Shown one piece after another: positions 5,968 through 30,890 of a stretch of 36,671 nucleotides of DNA. Position numbers and translations under genes: made by a program. The stretch lies in the IMG/VR virus record IMGVR_UViG_3300038415_000180. One strand, 5' to 3'. A model generated the notes under the pieces. It made no database searches. It was not told where the DNA came from and saw nothing but the letters and a program-made list of their open reading frames with translations. This DNA is from a virus. The number at the start of each line of letters is the position of its first letter. Position 1 is the stretch's first letter.

Positions 5968-5996
5968 TTGAGAAGTCACCTTCTCGCGCGTAATAC
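5968..5996 (+). promoter_or_regulatory. Family promoter TTGAGA -17- (CGCG)TAATAC, 5 nt upstream of ATG 6002.
   Basis: It is the same motif as six minus-strand copies (see the findings). The short 5-nt spacing implies a leaderless or near-leaderless mRNA. Confidence 0.5.
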
Positions 5997-6001
5997 TAGA
6001 C

Positions 6002-6358
6002 ATGGCAACTCTCAACAAGACCACTAAGTTGTTTGAAGACCTGACTGACCAAGAAGCCAAAGATCTTCAGGTATGGGTCGAAGGGGTTATGCTACAAGGG
6101 ACTTTCCCGGTAACCCACCCTAGCCTAATCGAACAATGGCTCCTAGCCTTTGGGTTCCGTTCAAGTGAGAGCCTCTTGCTGGTCATCTCGACTGTGCTAC
6201 CTCAGCACATCCTTCTATCTTTGCTGAGGAAACGGGACCAGGAGTTCGGCGCAGTCTGCGAGGAGCTTCATACCTCATTCGCCTCCGGCAACGACGGTGT
6301 CCTGGAAGCAATTCGGTCCTTGGCTGATGCCTGTGACATGGCTCTTGGGGCTCGGTAG
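6002..6358 (+). CDS. Hypothetical protein, 118 aa.
   Basis: ORF immediately downstream of the family promoter. Confidence 0.55.
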   Translation: MATLNKTTKLFEDLTDQEAKDLQVWVEGVMLQGTFPVTHPSLIEQWLLAFGFRSSESLLLVISTVLPQHILLSLLRKRDQEFGAVCEELHTSFASGNDGVLEAIRSLADACDMALGAR

Positions 6359-6527
6359 GGCCAATGACCTACCTGAACACGAATCGATGCCCTCACACTA
6401 GTCTCGCCGGAACACCCCCAGAGGAGGTTCAATGCGTGAAAGTGCGAGGGCATAAAGAAAGCGAGCATCGGGGGATTCGGACGAAAGATGGGACAACCCA
6501 TTGCTGGCTAGGAAGATGGAGTCATAG

Positions 6528-6550
6528 GGTTCTCACCGAGGGTGAGAACC
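6528..6550 (+). promoter_or_regulatory. Perfect 10-bp hairpin (GGTTCTCACC-gag-GGTGAGAACC) 13 nt upstream of ATG 6564, with no U-tract.
   Basis: The inverted repeat can be read directly. A mini-ORF with a strong SD (GAGGAGG, ATG 6432, 7 codons) lies upstream. Confidence 0.4.
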
Positions 6551-6563
6551 AAAGGGCAACTCG

Positions 6564-6878
6564 ATGACAACCAAGATGAAACGAGTCAAAGGACCTGATG
6601 ATGTCCCGATTGGACCTCACTTTGCTGTGATCATTTACGGCAAGAGGAGTATCTACATCGAGGGTGACGAGCGCTCGCGGACCGCCCCAGGACACGGATA
6701 CCCAGCCCATACGGAACGCTTCGATGACATTGAGCACTGGGTGACAACCGAGCGAGCAGTTCTCGACGAGTTCGTCAGCGTCCAGGAAATGGCAACAGGC
6801 TCGAACAAGAAGCCCTATGTCGTCATCGAGGTGACCAAGAAGGGTGGGGTCAAGCACAACACCTCGGTCACCTTCTGA
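6564..6878 (+). CDS. Hypothetical protein, 104 aa.
   Basis: ORF with a TGATG overlap with the next gene. Confidence 0.5.
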   Translation: MTTKMKRVKGPDDVPIGPHFAVIIYGKRSIYIEGDERSRTAPGHGYPAHTERFDDIEHWVTTERAVLDEFVSVQEMATGSNKKPYVVIEVTKKGGVKHNTSVTF

Positions 6879-7288
6879 TGCCGAAGCCAGGGTGGCTTAA
6901 GGTTGGCCTCTGGCTACTGAGGGTAGATGCTCCTGAAGGACCTCCAGTCAGGGTTACCAAGATCTCTCGCCTGTGGGTAGACATGGATGACGAGAGTGGT
7001 GACCTTCATTGCAGGGTTAGGGTCCCCAATATCCGAGAGTTCTACTTCTCCACCGCTTACTTCGAGTGCGACGACTGCTGTAGGGACACCCAGAGCCCTA
7101 CCCATTGCGGGCCTTGCCTCAGACGCAAGTGCGCTTTCTCTATCAGTGGAAACCACCATTGCGAGCTACCACACACCTGTAAGAGAGCATTCCGAGAGTA
7201 TCCCGTATCCAAGCTACCCATGGAGCTACCTAAACATGGAAGGCCCAATGTCATCCCTACTCGGTACGAGAGGAAATGGGTAATCTAG
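6878..7288 (+). CDS. Cys-rich hypothetical protein, 136 aa, ending in the shared C-terminal tag ...IPTRYERKWVI*.
   Basis: ORF with clustered cysteines (CDDCCRD...CGPCLRRKC...HHCELPHTC). It carries the conserved C-terminal motif. Confidence 0.55.
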   Translation: MPKPGWLKVGLWLLRVDAPEGPPVRVTKISRLWVDMDDESGDLHCRVRVPNIREFYFSTAYFECDDCCRDTQSPTHCGPCLRRKCAFSISGNHHCELPHTCKRAFREYPVSKLPMELPKHGRPNVIPTRYERKWVI

Positions 7289-7309
7289 TTATGGTGTACC
7301 TCAAGAAGA

Positions 7310-8227
7310 ATGCCATTCAACAGCATCTTGGAGTACGTGGAAGGCCCGACTGGCCTTAACTGGACCCTGTATCCAGTCCAGCGGTTCATCCTGAAGCTCT
7401 ACTACGGACTTGAGTTAGACAACACTCAGAGGACAATCATTGTCCCGGACATGTTCAATGAGCAGGAGTACCTGAGATTCCTCTTTGAGGAGGGTCGTTG
7501 CAGCATCAGCGACCAAAGCTCTATACCGCGCAGGGGAATGATACTCTCAGTTGGTCGACGGACTGGAAAGAACATGCTGGCAGGGTTCATTGCCACCTAC
7601 ACAATCATCGAGCTGTTGCAGATGATGAACCCTCACCCCGTCTTTGGGTTGACACCAAGGCAAACTCTCTACGTCATGTGTTTTAGCATGAGCACCGATC
7701 TACGAGATGCTCTAGCCTCAGAACTACACACTAATGTTGACCATTGTCAAGCTCTTCGGAGTGCGGTAACCAGCAGCTCCCTCGCTAATATCACCTTCGA
7801 GACCTATGCTGGAAGGCAAGCTGGACTCACCCAAGGTAACTTGAGACTCAGGTCGTACTCAAACATTGCTAGGACAAGGGGATTTAGTGCAGTACAGCTT
7901 GTGGTAAATGAGCTGGCTCACATGACCCATGAAGCGGATGTGTATGCCTCTCTCATGCCAACGGTAACCACACCCGGGCGCTACATCATCCTGTCAACCC
8001 CGAGGGAGGCCTCGGGAGCCTTCTATAGCGCCTTCACGTGGGGGATGCAGAACCATAACCAAGACTCTCCGCTCGCCCTTCAGATCCCCACGTGGGAGAT
8101 TCAGCCAAACGTTGGTGATGGTTACCTCAGAGCACAATACGAACTGGACCCTCATCGGTTCCTAGTTGAGTTCGGGGCTGTATGGGAGCACCACGGTCGA
8201 CTGATCACAATCGACGTTACTATTTGA
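7310..8227 (+). CDS. ATPase domain resembling a phage large terminase subunit, 305 aa, with atypical Walker motifs (GRRTGKN; VVNELAHM).
   Basis: The order and spacing of its motifs fit T4 gp17-type terminases. These are YPVQR (Q-motif-like), VGRRTGKN (Walker A-like), LVVNELAHM (Walker B-like) and YIILSTPREASGAFY (motif III, compare IITTTPNGLNHFY). No nuclease domain follows. Confidence 0.45.
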   Translation: MPFNSILEYVEGPTGLNWTLYPVQRFILKLYYGLELDNTQRTIIVPDMFNEQEYLRFLFEEGRCSISDQSSIPRRGMILSVGRRTGKNMLAGFIATYTIIELLQMMNPHPVFGLTPRQTLYVMCFSMSTDLRDALASELHTNVDHCQALRSAVTSSSLANITFETYAGRQAGLTQGNLRLRSYSNIARTRGFSAVQLVVNELAHMTHEADVYASLMPTVTTPGRYIILSTPREASGAFYSAFTWGMQNHNQDSPLALQIPTWEIQPNVGDGYLRAQYELDPHRFLVEFGAVWEHHGRLITIDVTI

Positions 8228-8534
8228 GCGCGTCGGTGATAGCATCGATGATCTTGAGGAGTACGGAGTCTTCATTATTGTCAACAACGAAAGTAAGCTC
8301 TCCCGGATCAACTACCATGAGATCCACCATGCTTGTAGCGTATTGCTTGTTCCACCCCTCAGCATCCCATGCTTCAGCCGCTTCCTTTGATCGATAAACG
8401 AACACCTCTATCGGACTATCGATCTCGACTACCGAAGTACCCCACACACTCTCTATCGCTTTGATGGCCTCCACAAGGGTCTGGTCAGGAGGAAACTTGC
8501 TTGGGACCGTAAGGTCATATCCGCCGATGTCCAT
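8220..8534 (-). CDS. Hypothetical acidic protein, 104 aa.
   Basis: ORF that converges on the terminase-like gene. Confidence 0.45.
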   Translation of the reverse strand: MDIGGYDLTVPSKFPPDQTLVEAIKAIESVWGTSVVEIDSPIEVFVYRSKEAAEAWDAEGWNKQYATSMVDLMVVDPGELTFVVDNNEDSVLLKIIDAITDALK

Positions 8535-29930: not shown

Positions 29931-29941
29931 CGGTCTCTCAT

Positions 29942-29970
29942 GTATTACGCATGTTAATTCTGATTTTCAA
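29942..29970 (-). promoter_or_regulatory. Family promoter TTGAAA -17- (ATGCG)TAATAC.
   Basis: Conserved motif, 11 nt before ATG 29930. Confidence 0.45.
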
Positions 29971-29991
29971 CCTAAATCTCCGGTCCTATCC

Positions 29992-30228
29992 CTAATTGGT
30001 CCGTCGAGGTGGGAGTAGCTCGGAGCAAACCATGCACTCATCAAACGCTTTGGCGAGTATTAGACGAGATCCCACCTTCAACTCGGTGTACTTTTCGGAG
30101 TCTTCCTTAGTAATAGTGAACCGGAATATGGTACCGTCCACTTCATCAGCTTCACCTCTTTGGGCGCGGCCCCAAAAGTCCTTCACATACTCTGGTTGTC
30201 CTTCAAACATATCGGGTCGGTCGGTCAT
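29992..30228 (-). CDS. Hypothetical protein, 78 aa.
   Basis: ORF downstream of a family promoter, with a leader of about 36 nt. Confidence 0.45.
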   Translation of the reverse strand: MTDRPDMFEGQPEYVKDFWGRAQRGEADEVDGTIFRFTITKEDSEKYTELKVGSRLILAKAFDECMVCSELLPPRRTN

Positions 30229-30264
30229 GTCTCACTCTCTTTGGGGCCAGTAAGCTCTCTTAAT

Positions 30265-30293
30265 CTATTACGTTTCAGGGGCTTAGAACTCAA
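30265..30293 (-). promoter_or_regulatory. Family promoter TTGAGT -17- (AACG)TAATAG.
   Basis: Conserved motif. Confidence 0.4.
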
Positions 30294-30478
30294 CCAAGAT
30301 CAGCGAGTTATAGATCTTAGGACCCTTCCGCAGAAGTAGGACCCCGGGAGTATGACCCAGAACAGCTTGATGGATTCCAGCCACAATCCATGCATCCGGT
30401 TCATGGTAGCCCAAAAGATGATGAGGAACCCAATGAGGAGCATGTAGGCAGCGGCGAGGTCTAGTAGTTTGAATCGGA

Positions 30479-30856
30479 TCAAGGTTTCCAACCCTTCGGA
30501 GGCTTCCAACCGGCGGCGGAGGCTTGCACAGCCCAGTCAGGCCAAGGTATCTCACTCAAGGATGATTTCATCAAAGCCCTGATTTTGGTGAAAGCCTTAG
30601 CAGCCTGGGTTTTACTCTCCCACCAGAAACCGATAGCATCGTGGCCGCGAGTATCCCGGTCACCCTCTTTAATTACCTGGAAACCAGCCCTTTCAGCTGC
30701 CCAGTAATCACGATCCATTTTTGAGGCCTTGTTGTAGTCTGCCGGCGGTTCGCGCCTCTCCTGCCCGAGGAAGGCCCCCATATCATCACCGTCATCTAAC
30801 TCCCATTGGATACGGTAAACGCTACGATCTTCAACAACAACGAGTTTGTCAGCCAT
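30479..30856 (-). CDS. Hypothetical protein, 125 aa.
   Basis: ORF 5 nt downstream of a family promoter. Confidence 0.5.
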   Translation of the reverse strand: MADKLVVVEDRSVYRIQWELDDGDDMGAFLGQERREPPADYNKASKMDRDYWAAERAGFQVIKEGDRDTRGHDAIGFWWESKTQAAKAFTKIRALMKSSLSEIPWPDWAVQASAAGWKPPKGWKP

Positions 30857-30861
30857 ACTTC

Positions 30862-30890
30862 TTATTACGCGCGAGCCGCCCAGATCTCAA
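30862..30890 (-). promoter_or_regulatory. Family promoter TTGAGA -17- (CGCGCG)TAATAA.
   Basis: Conserved motif, 5 nt before ATG 30856. Confidence 0.5.

What the first reader, a model, noticed from the sequence alone, without database searches (positions are those of the whole stretch)
5968..30890. Seven copies of a promoter, TTGAGA-N17/18-(G)CGCGTAATAC, sit about 5 nt before the ATG, which implies leaderless mRNAs
The copies are at these positions:
- 5968-5996, plus strand, for gene 6002.
- 19867-19896, minus strand.
- 22317-22346, minus strand.
- 23557-23585, minus strand.
- 29942-29970, minus strand.
- 30265-30293, minus strand.
- 30862-30890, minus strand.

In every copy a -35-like TTGAG(A/T) is followed after 17-18 nt by a -10-like TAATA(C/A/G). 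The -10 is preceded by a conserved GC-rich CGCG. The start codon lies 5-11 nt downstream, except in one case where it is 36 nt. Transcripts would therefore start at or within a few nt of the ATG, and these genes have no SD.

Two of the promoters lie inside 5' extensions of the ORF track, which supports the shorter gene models. The small genes 29658-30856 each carry their own copy. This looks like a co-regulated temporal class, as in phage early or middle genes.

The CGCG+TAATA -10 element loosely resembles the FliA-type -10 (GCCGATAA). These promoters may therefore be read by the FliA-like sigma factor encoded at 31920-32504 and not by the host housekeeping sigma.
Basis: seen in the sequence. 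Interest (0 to 1): 0.65.

Follow-up and report, generated by a model that had tools for sequence, protein, structure and literature searches.

The report
Phage promoters that make leaderless mRNAs
Seven copies of a highly conserved two-block promoter in a fragment of a ~440-kb uncultivated phage sit so close to start codons that the mRNAs should begin at the ATG, and the phage's own flagellar-type sigma factor is the most likely, but unproven, reader.

Summary
The window holds exactly seven copies of TTGAG-N16(17)-CGTAATA, where shuffles give 0. All are intergenic and point at an ORF.

- **Conservation.** A matrix trained only on relatives recovers these seven sites and nothing else. Relatives (sigma 47-99% identical, two on 435-442 kb contigs) keep both blocks at orthologous positions while spacers diverge. 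Other genome parts of related phages add ~45 copies.
- **Leaderless design.** Of 59 non-redundant sites, 42 place an ATG 5-9 nt after CGTAATA, mostly exactly 6 nt. GTG or TTG never occurs there, and the two bases at the predicted start are pyrimidine then purine. Promoter function and leaderless mRNAs are well supported but not measured.
- **Which sigma.** No register gives A at -11 together with T at -7, so a housekeeping sigma is unlikely. The encoded sigma is FliA-like but lacks domain 3. It keeps the FliA residues that read C-13/G-12, and the motif has the FliA spacing and an invariant CG. That assignment is plausible (about 0.5), not shown.
- **Second motif.** GGTGTA lies 9-10 nt before ATG at more genes, has no -35, and complicates the assignment.

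This is a new variant of a known kind.

The parts
5964..5996 (+). Class A promoter copy 1: -35 TTGAGA 5968-5973, -10 block CGTAATA 5989-5995; ATG 6 nt later at 6002
   Evidence: matrix score 30.8 bits
6002..6358 (+). First gene behind copy 1 (118 aa, no known family). It heads a tight run of ORFs: 6364-6567, 6564-6878, 6878-7288
19877..19910 (-). Class A promoter copy 2 (corrected coordinates): TTGAGA 19901-19906, CGTATTA 19878-19884, spacer one nt longer; ATG 6 nt later at 19871
   Evidence: 23.2 bits
19599..19871 (-). Gene behind copy 2, short model (90 aa). The ORF-track extension to 20000 contains the promoter
22317..22350 (-). Class A promoter copy 3: TTGAGA 22341-22346, CGTAATA 22318-22324, spacer one nt longer; ATG 6 nt later at 22311
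   Evidence: 39.5 bits; orthologous copies in L001, L004, L005, L006
22039..22311 (-). Gene behind copy 3, short model (90 aa). Relatives are called from this ATG
23557..23589 (-). Class A promoter copy 4: TTGAGT 23580-23585, CGTAATA 23558-23564; ATG 9 nt later at 23548. The 9-nt distance is kept in L001 and L005 and is 7 nt in L010
   Evidence: 35.3 bits
22358..23548 (-). Gene behind copy 4 (396 aa, no known family)
29942..29974 (-). Class A promoter copy 5: TTGAAA 29965-29970, CGTAATA 29943-29949; gene ATG 12 nt later at 29930 (16-21 nt in relatives)
   Evidence: 20.5 bits
29658..29930 (-). Gene behind copy 5 (90 aa), followed by 29144-29665
30265..30297 (-). Class A promoter copy 6: TTGAGT 30288-30293, CGTAATA 30266-30272. 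This is the only window copy with a real leader (37 nt, purine-rich before the ATG at 30228)
   Evidence: 33.4 bits
29992..30228 (-). Gene behind copy 6 (78 aa)
30862..30894 (-). Class A promoter copy 7: TTGAGA 30885-30890, CGTAATA 30863-30869; ATG 6 nt later at 30856. The 6-nt distance is kept in five relatives although those six bases differ
   Evidence: 40.3 bits
30479..30856 (-). Gene behind copy 7 (125 aa, MADKLVVV...)
31920..32504 (-). Candidate cognate sigma factor, 194 aa. It has sigma2 (residues about 15-88) and sigma4 (about 120-187) joined by a disordered linker, with no sigma3. It is closest to FliA/WhiG

Best explanation
The seven elements are copies of one phage-specific, sigma-dependent promoter. 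I call it class A. Its consensus is T-w-G-TTGAG-(A/T)-T-C ... C-T-C-G-y-G-CGTAATA, with 16 or 17 nt between TTGAG and CGTAATA.

The window is a fragment of an uncultivated huge phage of about 440 kb.

Host core RNA polymerase carrying a non-housekeeping sigma would bind the two blocks, melt the DNA at the CGTAATA block, and start at the purine 7 nt after it. In most copies that purine is the A of the ATG. The mRNA therefore has no 5' leader and no Shine-Dalgarno sequence, and must be translated by the leaderless route, in which the ribosome binds a 5'-terminal AUG directly.

The genes served are a distinct set, mostly small proteins of unknown function. In relatives the set also includes a CCA-adding enzyme, a SpoT-like HD hydrolase and a transposase.

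The most likely reader is the phage's own two-domain FliA-like sigma at 31920-32504.

**What is shown**
- The motif, its non-chance occurrence, its conservation, and its fixed distance to ATG.

**What is inferred, with my confidence**
- Promoter function: about 0.9.
- Start at or within 3 nt of the ATG for the sites at 6-9 nt: about 0.8.
- The encoded sigma as reader: about 0.5.
For: **Occurrence**
- Seven sites against 0 expected.
- A matrix built from relatives alone finds exactly these seven.

**Conservation**
- At orthologous positions, GTTGAG, CGTAATA and the ATG are invariant while spacer and flanks diverge.
- A pattern scan of IMG/VR brought in other genome parts of related phages with about 32 further copies.

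**Distance to the start codon**
- Of 59 non-redundant sites, 48 have the 15-nt spacer and 11 the 16-nt spacer.
- 42 sites have an ATG 5-9 nt after the block that opens an ORF of 35 codons or more.
- ATG lies exactly at +6 in 32 of 58 sites, with zero GTG or TTG there.
- All 41 such ATGs open ORFs of 35 aa or more, and 39 of them 58 aa or more.
- The base before the predicted start is a pyrimidine in 53 of 59 sites. The start base is A in 43 and a purine in 51 of 59, including sites not followed by TG.

**Not a housekeeping promoter**
- The base after CGTAATA is T in only 3 of 59 sites, so no register gives A-11 plus T-7.
- Canonical sigma70-type sites are not enriched: 9 found against 10 expected.

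**The sigma**
- Its best solved relatives are FliA/WhiG at E 2e-22, against RpoD at 1e-9.
- The model shows two helical domains with a 31-residue disordered linker.
- In the Pseudomonas sigma28 open complex, the -10 element is (-15)GCCGATAA(-8) and the -35 element is (-36)TCTAAAG(-30). R80 and D87 contact G-12/C-13, Y76 stacks on the flipped base, and -7 is neither conserved nor flipped (PMC12784957).
- The phage sigma keeps these residues as R77, D84 and Y73. They are invariant in the close family, as is Q175, which corresponds to Q228 in sigma4.
- Class A fits the same register: TTGAG at -34..-30, C-13 G-12, and the A of ATG at +1.

**Gene classes**
- The gene sets behind class A and class B do not overlap (27 against 45 clusters, no cross hits).

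**Context**
- An unbiased 6-mer scan upstream of ORF starts returns only GGTGTA and CGTAATA-derived words, with no SD words.
Against: - No transcription start site has been measured.
- The block sequences differ from the FliA consensus: TTGAG against TAAAG, and CGTAATA against CGATAA, with a T where FliA promoters have the flipped A-11.
- The sigma lacks domain 3, and its counterpart of R97, which reads the extended -10, is not evident.
- The sigma gene itself has no class A copy. It has only a degenerate TTARGG-N16-T(A/T)ATAC, so a housekeeping-type or self-reading promoter cannot be told apart.
- A more distant clade has a sigma 35-40% identical with R77, D84, R172 and Q175 kept. It shows many GGTGTA sites but no class A copy in 2 x 20 kb around the sigma gene.
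- Class A and class B share G-T-A at the same distance (9 nt) from the ATG. The sigma might therefore read class B, or both classes.
- Sixteen of 59 class A sites have leaders of 12-89 nt, so the class is not uniformly leaderless.
Confidence: 0.55

Rival explanations
1. Class A promoters are real and give leaderless mRNAs, but a different factor reads them. That factor could be a second phage sigma encoded elsewhere in the ~440-kb genome, or a host alternative sigma. The FliA-like sigma at 31920-32504 would then read the more widespread GGTGTA (class B) promoters.
For: - Class B occurs in both the window's clade and the distant clade that shares the sigma family, whereas class A was not found in the distant clade.
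- Class B is more abundant: 32 against 11 of 179 called starts.
- A relative carries an extra small Sigma70_r4 protein (L003 3918-4253), so more than one sigma-like factor exists in the family.
Against: - Class B has no -35 block. Only 3 of 89 sites have TTGAG 12-17 nt upstream, which is background level.
- The sigma nevertheless has a well-conserved sigma4 recognition helix, with E170, R172, Q175 and K177 invariant across both clades.
- Class B has no CG at the position read by the conserved R77/D84 pair, whereas class A does.
Confidence: 0.25
2. Class A sites are early promoters read by the host housekeeping sigma, as in T4, T5 or SPO1 early regions. The strong conservation would simply reflect selection for very strong promoters.
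For: - The geometry TTGAGA-N17/18-TAATAC is that of sigma70 promoters, and TTGAGA differs from TTGACA at one base.
- The genes served are small ORFans clustered next to the sigma gene, each with its own promoter, as in host-takeover modules.
- The sigma gene's own upstream has a weaker look-alike, TTARGG-N16-TwATAC.
Against: - The position that would be -7 is T in 3 of 59 sites, and no alternative register supplies A-11 plus T-7. T-7 recognition needs sigma region 1.2 and is a conserved feature of sigma70 promoters (PMC12784957).
- The invariant CG and the CTCGyG stretch have no counterpart in housekeeping promoters.
- Canonical sigma70 sites are not enriched in the region.
Confidence: 0.1
3. 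The motif is not a promoter. It would be a binding site for a regulator, or an RNA-level signal (translation or processing) within longer transcripts.
For: - No start site has been measured.
- The fixed distance to the ATG could in principle reflect a translational element.
Against: - The two blocks are unrelated in sequence and are not a repeat or a palindrome. They sit at promoter-like spacing with a non-conserved spacer.
- The sites follow gene ends and open new units on either strand.
- One copy in a relative is followed after about 60 nt by a hairpin-plus-T-run terminator with no ORF, which reads as a self-contained transcription unit (L044).
- When the ATG is far from the block, the sequence between them is not conserved.
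Confidence: 0.05

Closest known systems
Sigma28 (FliA/WhiG)-dependent promoters, TAAAG-N16-CGATAA (GCCGATAA)
   Same: - The distance between the 3' end of the -35 block and the CG of the -10 block is the same (16 nt).
- CG is invariant at the -13/-12 register.
- The -7 position is not conserved.
- The predicted start falls at +1 in that register.
- The candidate sigma keeps the R80, D87, Y76 and Q228 equivalents.
(PMC12784957.)
   Different: - The -35 block is TTGAG, not T(C/A)AAG.
- The -10 block is CGTAATA, with a T where FliA promoters have A-11.
- There is no GC at -15/-14.
- The sigma has no domain 3 and scores far below the family cut-off.
- The genes served are phage genes, not flagellar genes.
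Phage-encoded sigma factors with their own promoter classes (SPO1 gp28 and gp33/34, T4 gp55, phiEco32 gp36; RNAP-less jumbo phages in general)
   Same: A lytic phage without its own polymerase redirects host core polymerase to a high-information, phage-specific promoter class that defines a set of co-regulated genes. Reviews state that RNAP-less jumbo phages encode sigma homologues that probably do this (PMC7824862, PMC13282480). The named examples come from my own knowledge.
   Different: - The promoter sequence is unrelated to any of those.
- The sigma here is FliA-derived with two domains.
- The promoters are placed so that the transcript starts at the ATG.
Leaderless mRNAs (lambda cI from PRM; common in Actinobacteria, Deinococcus-Thermus and their phages)
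   Same: - The -10 block lies a fixed 6-7 nt before an ATG.
- Only ATG is used as the start codon.
- There is no SD.
The named examples come from my own knowledge.
   Different: - Here this is a systematic design for a whole promoter class.
- A second motif does the same at more genes, in a huge phage.
- The -10 block is not the TANNNT of housekeeping promoters.
Promoters of the characterised jumbo phages AR9 and phiKZ
   Same: They are short, highly conserved, phage-specific motifs that define temporal classes. AR9 early is AAATATATATTAT-N6-G and AR9 late is AACA-N6-TA/G (PMC5312081).
   Different: - Those promoters are read by phage multisubunit polymerases and have no -35 block.
- AR9 5' UTRs are 26-491 nt, and phiKZ shows no leaderless transcript (PMC5312081, PMC8244752).
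ECF (group 4) sigma factors
   Same: The protein has a two-domain sigma2-linker-sigma4 architecture of about 190 aa. In my own knowledge, ECF -10 elements often contain CGT.
   Different: - By sequence the sigma is closest to FliA/WhiG, not to ECF families.
- The -35 block lacks the AAC typical of ECF promoters.

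Membership tests
Sigma70-family bipartite (-35/-10) promoter | Two conserved blocks separated by a non-conserved spacer of fixed length | tested here: met
   59 non-redundant sites: the spacer is 15 nt in 48 and 16 nt in 11. Information content is near zero in the mid-spacer
Sigma70-family bipartite (-35/-10) promoter | Intergenic, upstream of a gene and oriented toward it | tested here: met
   All seven window sites. 58 of 59 family sites are followed by an ORF
Sigma70-family bipartite (-35/-10) promoter | Blocks conserved at orthologous positions while the flanks diverge | tested here: met
   Alignments A3 and A4: GTTGAG, CGTAATA and ATG are invariant, and the rest varies
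Sigma70-family bipartite (-35/-10) promoter | Mapped transcription start 5-9 nt downstream of the -10 block | not testable with these tools
   Only indirect evidence: pyrimidine/purine at the predicted -1/+1
Housekeeping (group 1 sigma) promoter TTGACA-N17-TATAAT | A at -11 and T at -7 of the -10 hexamer | tested here: not met
   The base after CGTAATA is T in 3 of 59 sites, and no register gives both. The consensus scan does not pick these sites, and sigma70-like sites are not enriched
Sigma28/FliA-dependent promoter | Spacing and register: -35 ends at -30, CG at -13/-12, start at +1 | tested here: met
   TTGAG-N16-CG...-N6-A(TG) against (-36)TCTAAAG(-30) and (-15)GCCGATAA(-8) (PMC12784957)
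Sigma28/FliA-dependent promoter | -10 sequence GCCGATAA, with A-11 directly after CG and GC at -15/-14 | tested here: not met
   The block is yG-CG-TAATA: T follows CG, and the two preceding bases are C/T then G
Sigma28/FliA-dependent promoter | -35 sequence TAAA(G) / TCTAAAG | tested here: not met
   The block is TwGTTGAG. Only T-34, A-31 and G-30 coincide
FliA/WhiG sigma factor family (protein) | Score at or above the curated family cut-off | tested here: not met
   TIGR02479 scores 95.5 bits against a cut-off of 189.6. The FliA equivalog models are also far below their cut-offs
FliA/WhiG sigma factor family (protein) | Three domains: sigma2, sigma3, sigma4 | tested here: not met
   The profile alignment skips FliA residues about 113-177. 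The model has two helical domains and a disordered linker at residues 89-119
FliA/WhiG sigma factor family (protein) | Group 3 DNA-reading residues (R80, D87, Y76; Q228 in sigma4) | tested here: met
   R77, D84, Y73 and Q175 are invariant in the close family. R77, D84 and Q175 are also invariant in the distant clade
Leaderless mRNA | The transcript begins at the start codon or within a few nt of it | not testable with these tools
   Inferred from the 6-nt distance and the -1/+1 signature
Leaderless mRNA | Start codon is AUG, not GUG or UUG | tested here: met
   At +6 there are 32 ATG, 0 GTG and 0 TTG that open ORFs of 60 codons or more. Among all called genes, GTG or TTG starts make up 30 of 144
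Leaderless mRNA | No Shine-Dalgarno sequence between promoter and start codon | tested here: met
   Only 6-9 non-conserved nt separate the block from the ATG at 5 of 7 window sites and at 42 of 59 family sites

The most novel reading that the evidence does not exclude
This family of ~440-500 kb phages expresses a large share of its genes as leaderless or near-leaderless mRNAs from two dedicated promoter architectures that share a G-T-A core 9 nt before the ATG. The first is -35-dependent: TTGAG-N16-CGTAATA. The second is -35-independent: yGGTGTA. Both would be read through the sigma2 domain of one FliA-derived sigma that has lost domain 3. Shine-Dalgarno initiation would be left to internal operon genes. 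That would couple phage-specific transcription to a translation route distinct from most host mRNAs. No such design has been described for any characterised jumbo phage.
Probability: 0.25. Interest if true: 0.75.

Novelty: new variant of a known kind. Interest (0 to 1): 0.55.

Why it matters
Transcription programmes of uncultivated huge phages are essentially unknown. The two jumbo phages with mapped start sites, AR9 and phiKZ, use their own polymerases and long 5' UTRs.

Here the sequence alone gives three things:
- a testable promoter-sigma pair, namely a 29-bp promoter and a 194-aa two-domain sigma that could be tried with E. coli core polymerase;
- a defined regulon;
- a prediction that most of its mRNAs start at the AUG.

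If confirmed, this would give an orthogonal sigma/promoter part for synthetic biology. It would correct start-codon calls in these genomes, where automatic callers extend ORFs over the promoters. It would also raise the question of whether leaderless translation lets a huge phage keep its own messages translated while host translation is disturbed.

Tried and rejected
- **Phage DNA search.** Megablast of 14 kb against 50,697 phage records found no match.
- **Protein-seeded scans of IMG/VR.** Queries with the 396-aa protein and with the sigma found no relatives. Relatives were reached instead through the protein database, contig look-ups, and a DNA-pattern scan.
- **tblastn of the sigma against phage records.** Only four hits, at 22.6-43.8% identity (the highest covers only 24% of the sigma).
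- **One relative unreadable.** The DNA of the 435-kb relative (P0007) could not be fetched.
- **RNA genes.** Rfam and tRNA scans of the window were empty. No tRNAs lie behind the class A sites that lack a nearby ATG.
- **Literature.** A search for 'CGTAATA' returned only primer noise. No paper links a phage-encoded sigma to FliA.
- **Host inference.** The transposase that sits behind a class A promoter in relatives has only ~50%-identical homologues, spread over Acidobacteriota, Planctomycetota, Chloroflexota and archaea. No host call is possible.
- **Class A in the distant clade.** I searched for a class A-like or any other bipartite motif by listing all GTTGA[GA] sites and by k-mer counts. 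Nothing convincing emerged.
- **Class B with a -35 block.** Rejected. TTGAG at 12-17 nt upstream occurs in only 3 of 89 sites.
- **GGTGTA as a Shine-Dalgarno variant.** Rejected. GGTG would pair with the CACC of the 16S tail, but it lies 11-12 nt from the ATG, which is too far (inference).
- **A T7-type single-subunit polymerase promoter.** Rejected, despite the TAATAC, because the spacer between the two blocks is not conserved.

Full report
**What is there**

Reading the seven stated positions shows the motif at six of them exactly as described. At the seventh it is about 10 nt away: the true site is 19878-19906 on the minus strand, with CGTATTA in place of CGTAATA.

The precise form is TTGAG(A/T), then 15 or 16 variable bases, then CGTAATA. 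The site at 29970 reads TTGAAA. The ATG of the next ORF begins 6, 6, 6, 9, 12, 37 and 6 nt after the last A.

The two fixed-gap patterns give 5 + 2 matches. Dinucleotide-preserving shuffles give none.

I trained a position weight matrix only on sites from related contigs, not on the window. It scores the seven sites at 20-40 bits and nothing else in the window above 8 bits. The best score in 40 shuffled strands is 9.0. There are therefore exactly seven copies and no weak ones.

All seven sites are intergenic and point at the downstream ORF.

**What the window is**

The window has no close DNA relative among 50,697 deposited phage genomes.

The sigma-like protein at 31920-32504 has 10 close homologues in the 5.8-billion-protein collection. 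Two of them lie on contigs of 442 kb and 435 kb.

The neighbourhoods are syntenic. Shared genes are a nucleoside deoxyribosyltransferase, a CheY-like receiver, a CCA-adding enzyme and an AAA ATPase. The ATPase carries an intein in the window, L004, L005 and L006, and lacks it in L010 and the P0007 contig.

The window is therefore a 36.7-kb fragment of an uncultivated huge phage. It appears to be an entire JGI contig of that length (P0208).

**Conservation**

In relatives whose sigma is 47-99% identical, the motif sits at the orthologous positions. GTTGAG, CGTAATA and the ATG are invariant, while the spacer, the upstream flank and the six bases before the ATG differ.

A scan of IMG/VR for GTTGAG-N15-GCGTAATA brought in other genome regions of related phages. 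Several contigs carried 3-7 hits each, adding about 32 more copies.

The pooled set is 59 non-redundant sites: 48 with the 15-nt spacer and 11 with the 16-nt spacer. Positions not fixed by my search pattern are also conserved:
- G before TTGAG in 58 of 59 sites.
- T three bases further upstream in 42 of 59.
- (A/T)-T-C after TTGAG.
- C-T-C-G-y-G directly before CGTAATA.

**Leaderless design**

- Of the 59 sites, 42 have an ATG 5-9 nt after the block that opens an ORF.
- At the +6 offset alone there are 32 ATGs opening ORFs of 60 codons or more, and no GTG or TTG.
- All 41 ATGs found at 5-9 nt open ORFs of at least 35 aa, and 39 of them at least 58 aa.
- The sixth base after the block is a pyrimidine in 53 of 59 sites. 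The seventh is A in 43 and a purine in 51, including at sites where it is not part of an ATG. This is the usual -1/+1 preference of bacterial RNA polymerase, and it places the start on the A of the ATG.
Relatives of 22039-22311 are called from the ATG 6 nt after the motif.
- Sixteen of 59 sites have leaders of 12-89 nt. Six of these carry an SD-like purine run.
- One site in a relative (L044) is followed by about 60 nt and a hairpin-plus-T-run terminator with no ORF. This looks like a small RNA unit and shows the element working as a stand-alone promoter.

**Context: a second motif and low SD use**

An unbiased 6-mer scan of the 40 nt before ORF starts in the family loci returns only two signals:
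- CGTAATA-derived words, 8-9-fold enriched, peaking at -13.
- GGTGTA, 10-fold enriched, peaking at -15/-16.

No Shine-Dalgarno words appear.

GGTGTA occurs 33 times in the window against 13.5 ± 3.7 expected. In the family loci it is followed by an ATG mostly 9 or 10 nt later. It is preceded by a pyrimidine, and C usually stands directly before the ATG. It has no -35 block. I call this class B.

Among 179 independently called gene starts in six loci:
- 11 are class A.
- 32 are class B.
- 33 have an SD-like tetramer.
- 103 have none of these.

SD-like tetramers precede 21% of called starts against 9% of random positions. Genes lacking either motif show AAGGA and GGTGA words just before the ATG. 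SD initiation therefore exists but is used by a minority.

The gene families behind class A and class B do not overlap: 27 against 45 clusters, with no cross hits.
- Class A genes are mostly ORFans, plus a CCA-adding enzyme, a SpoT-like HD protein and a DDE transposase in relatives.
- Class B genes include uracil-DNA glycosylase, a CYTH protein, the intein-bearing AAA ATPase and a terminase-like protein.

**Which polymerase reads class A**

A housekeeping sigma is unlikely.
- As TTGAGA-N17/18-TAATAn the geometry fits, but the -7 position is T in only 3 of 59 sites, and no other register supplies A-11 together with T-7.
- Canonical sigma70-type sites are not enriched in the region: 9 found against 10 expected.

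The encoded sigma is the obvious candidate.
- A profile of the family matches solved FliA/WhiG structures at E 2e-22, against 1e-9 for RpoD. It matches in two stretches that skip FliA's domain 3.
- NCBIfam's FliA/WhiG model scores 95.5 bits, well below its cut-off of 189.6.
- The AlphaFold model has two confident helical domains, at residues about 15-88 and about 120-187, joined by a disordered linker.

The recent Pseudomonas sigma28 open-complex paper gives the reference points (PMC12784957):
- The -10 element is (-15)GCCGATAA(-8) and the -35 element is (-36)TCTAAAG(-30).
- R80 and D87 contact G-12/C-13.
- Y76 stacks on the flipped base.
- S224 and Q228 read the -35 element.
- The -7 base is neither conserved nor flipped, because group 3 sigmas lack region 1.2.

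Eleven named residues match the printed alignment at an offset of 5. This lets me map them onto the phage protein:
- Y73, R77, D84 and Q175 are retained and invariant in the close family.
- S224 becomes A171.

Placed in the same register, class A reads TTGAG(-34..-30)-N16-C(-13)G(-12)TAATA(-7)-N6-A(+1)TG. It shares three features with sigma28 promoters: the spacing, the CG where R77/D84 would read it, and a free -7. The resemblance to FliA promoters is therefore structural and not just loose. The block sequences themselves differ, so these are not FliA promoters.

**Evidence that tempers the assignment**

- The sigma gene has no class A or class B copy. Its upstream region carries a conserved TTARGG-N16-T(A/T)ATAC and an invariant 13-mer, TTTCTACTTATCC, found nowhere else.
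- An exhaustive profile search finds only 13 cluster representatives at E ≤ 1e-30. All are 144-209 aa and lack domain 3.
- Members of a more distant clade have a sigma 35-40% identical, lie on contigs up to 473 kb (the protein table lists 512 kb for another member), and show different synteny. They keep R77, D84, R172 and Q175.
- The 2 x 20 kb around those sigma genes contain several GGTGTA-N9-12-ATG sites and no class A copy.
- Class A and class B share G-T-A exactly 9 nt before the ATG.
- The sigma may therefore read class A only, class B only, or both through a common core.

**Comparison with known systems**

Phage-specific promoter classes read by phage-encoded sigmas are a known kind. Reviews already note that jumbo phages without their own polymerase carry sigma homologues (PMC7824862, PMC13282480). 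Leaderless mRNAs are also known.

The papers I found do not describe the following:
- This promoter sequence.
- A FliA-derived two-domain sigma in huge phages.
- Systematic placement of promoters so that transcripts start at the ATG.

The last point contrasts with AR9, whose UTRs are 26-491 nt, and with phiKZ, which shows no leaderless transcript (PMC5312081, PMC8244752).

I therefore class the finding as a new variant of a known kind. It is well supported as an observation and of moderate to good interest.

Noticed in passing
window: + strand 4224, 7293, 10445, 12483, 17277, 21870, 23813, 32607, 34165; - strand 31898-31903, 28481-28486, 15689-15694, 13693-13698, 5650-5655: A second and more abundant upstream motif, yGGTGTA. 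It lies mostly 9-10 nt before an ATG, has no -35 block, and usually has C just before the ATG. It occurs 33 times in the window against 13.5 expected, is conserved in relatives, and is also present in a more distant clade. It serves a gene set that does not overlap the class A set. It looks like a -35-independent promoter class that also gives near-leaderless mRNAs.
   Followed up: partly
window ORFs ending at 7288(+), 11412(+), 18716(+), 33675(+), 34163(+), 9374(-), 11405(-); 40 more in related loci: Forty-seven otherwise unrelated ORFs of 30-350 codons end in the same C-terminal motif, (S/T)R(Y/F)xRx(P/W)VI-stop, for example PTRYERDPVI. It looks like a shared C-terminal tag for targeting, packaging or degradation.
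   Followed up: no
window 32537-32549 (- strand), and 32550-32620: An invariant 13-mer, TTTCTACTTATCC, lies 11-72 nt upstream of the called sigma start in all 11 sigma-bearing relatives then fetched. It occurs nowhere else in the 211 loci then held. It is preceded by a conserved TTARGG-N16-T(A/T)ATAC. This may be the sigma gene's own promoter and a regulatory site in its leader.
   Followed up: partly
window 25208-28495 (-), true start probably 28468: An AAA ATPase gene is interrupted by an intein (Hint plus LAGLIDADG homing endonuclease). Relatives L010 and the P0007 contig have the same gene at 750 aa without the intein. Another intein sits in an HD-like protein in L010.
   Followed up: no
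window 1457-4093 (+): An 878-aa protein matches the major vault protein 'shoulder' domain (PF11978, E 3e-9), which is unusual in a phage.
   Followed up: no
L044 5011-5110 (+), contig IMGVR_UViG_3300038415_000126: A class A promoter is followed after about 60 nt by a GC hairpin and a T run, with no ORF. This is a candidate small RNA gene under the same promoter class.
   Followed up: no
window 30229-30265 (- strand leader of gene 29992-30228); L005 10152-10190, L008 13408-13446: The only long class A leader contains, in relatives, a short ORF (MRSYGPTESKV / MRAYGPNESVL) whose stop overlaps the gene's ATG as ATGA. In the window the mini-ORF has no ATG. Its ATG lies only 4 nt after CGTAATA, probably too close to be in the transcript.
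   Followed up: no
L001 671-690, L008 2751-2770, L010 2719-2738, L011 3566-3585: Divergent gene pairs have start regions that overlap in a palindrome, GGTGTA-N4-TACACC. Each gene's class B motif lies inside the first codons of the other gene. This is possible only with minimal promoters and very short leaders.
   Followed up: no
window 4180-4229 (+): A strong hairpin followed by TTTTT, which looks like a terminator, abuts a class B motif and the ATG at 4239. This reads as a stop-and-restart junction.
   Followed up: no
L011 12221-13484 (-), L074 about 2243 (-): A DDE transposase with a SWIM finger is driven by a perfect class A promoter with its ATG at +6, so a mobile element is wired into the phage's promoter class. 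Cellular homologues are only ~50% identical.
   Followed up: partly
window 31920-32504 (-): The source's own gene call for the sigma on this contig is only the C-terminal 96 aa (P0208, contig length 36,671). The full 194-aa ORF is supported by homologues.
   Followed up: no
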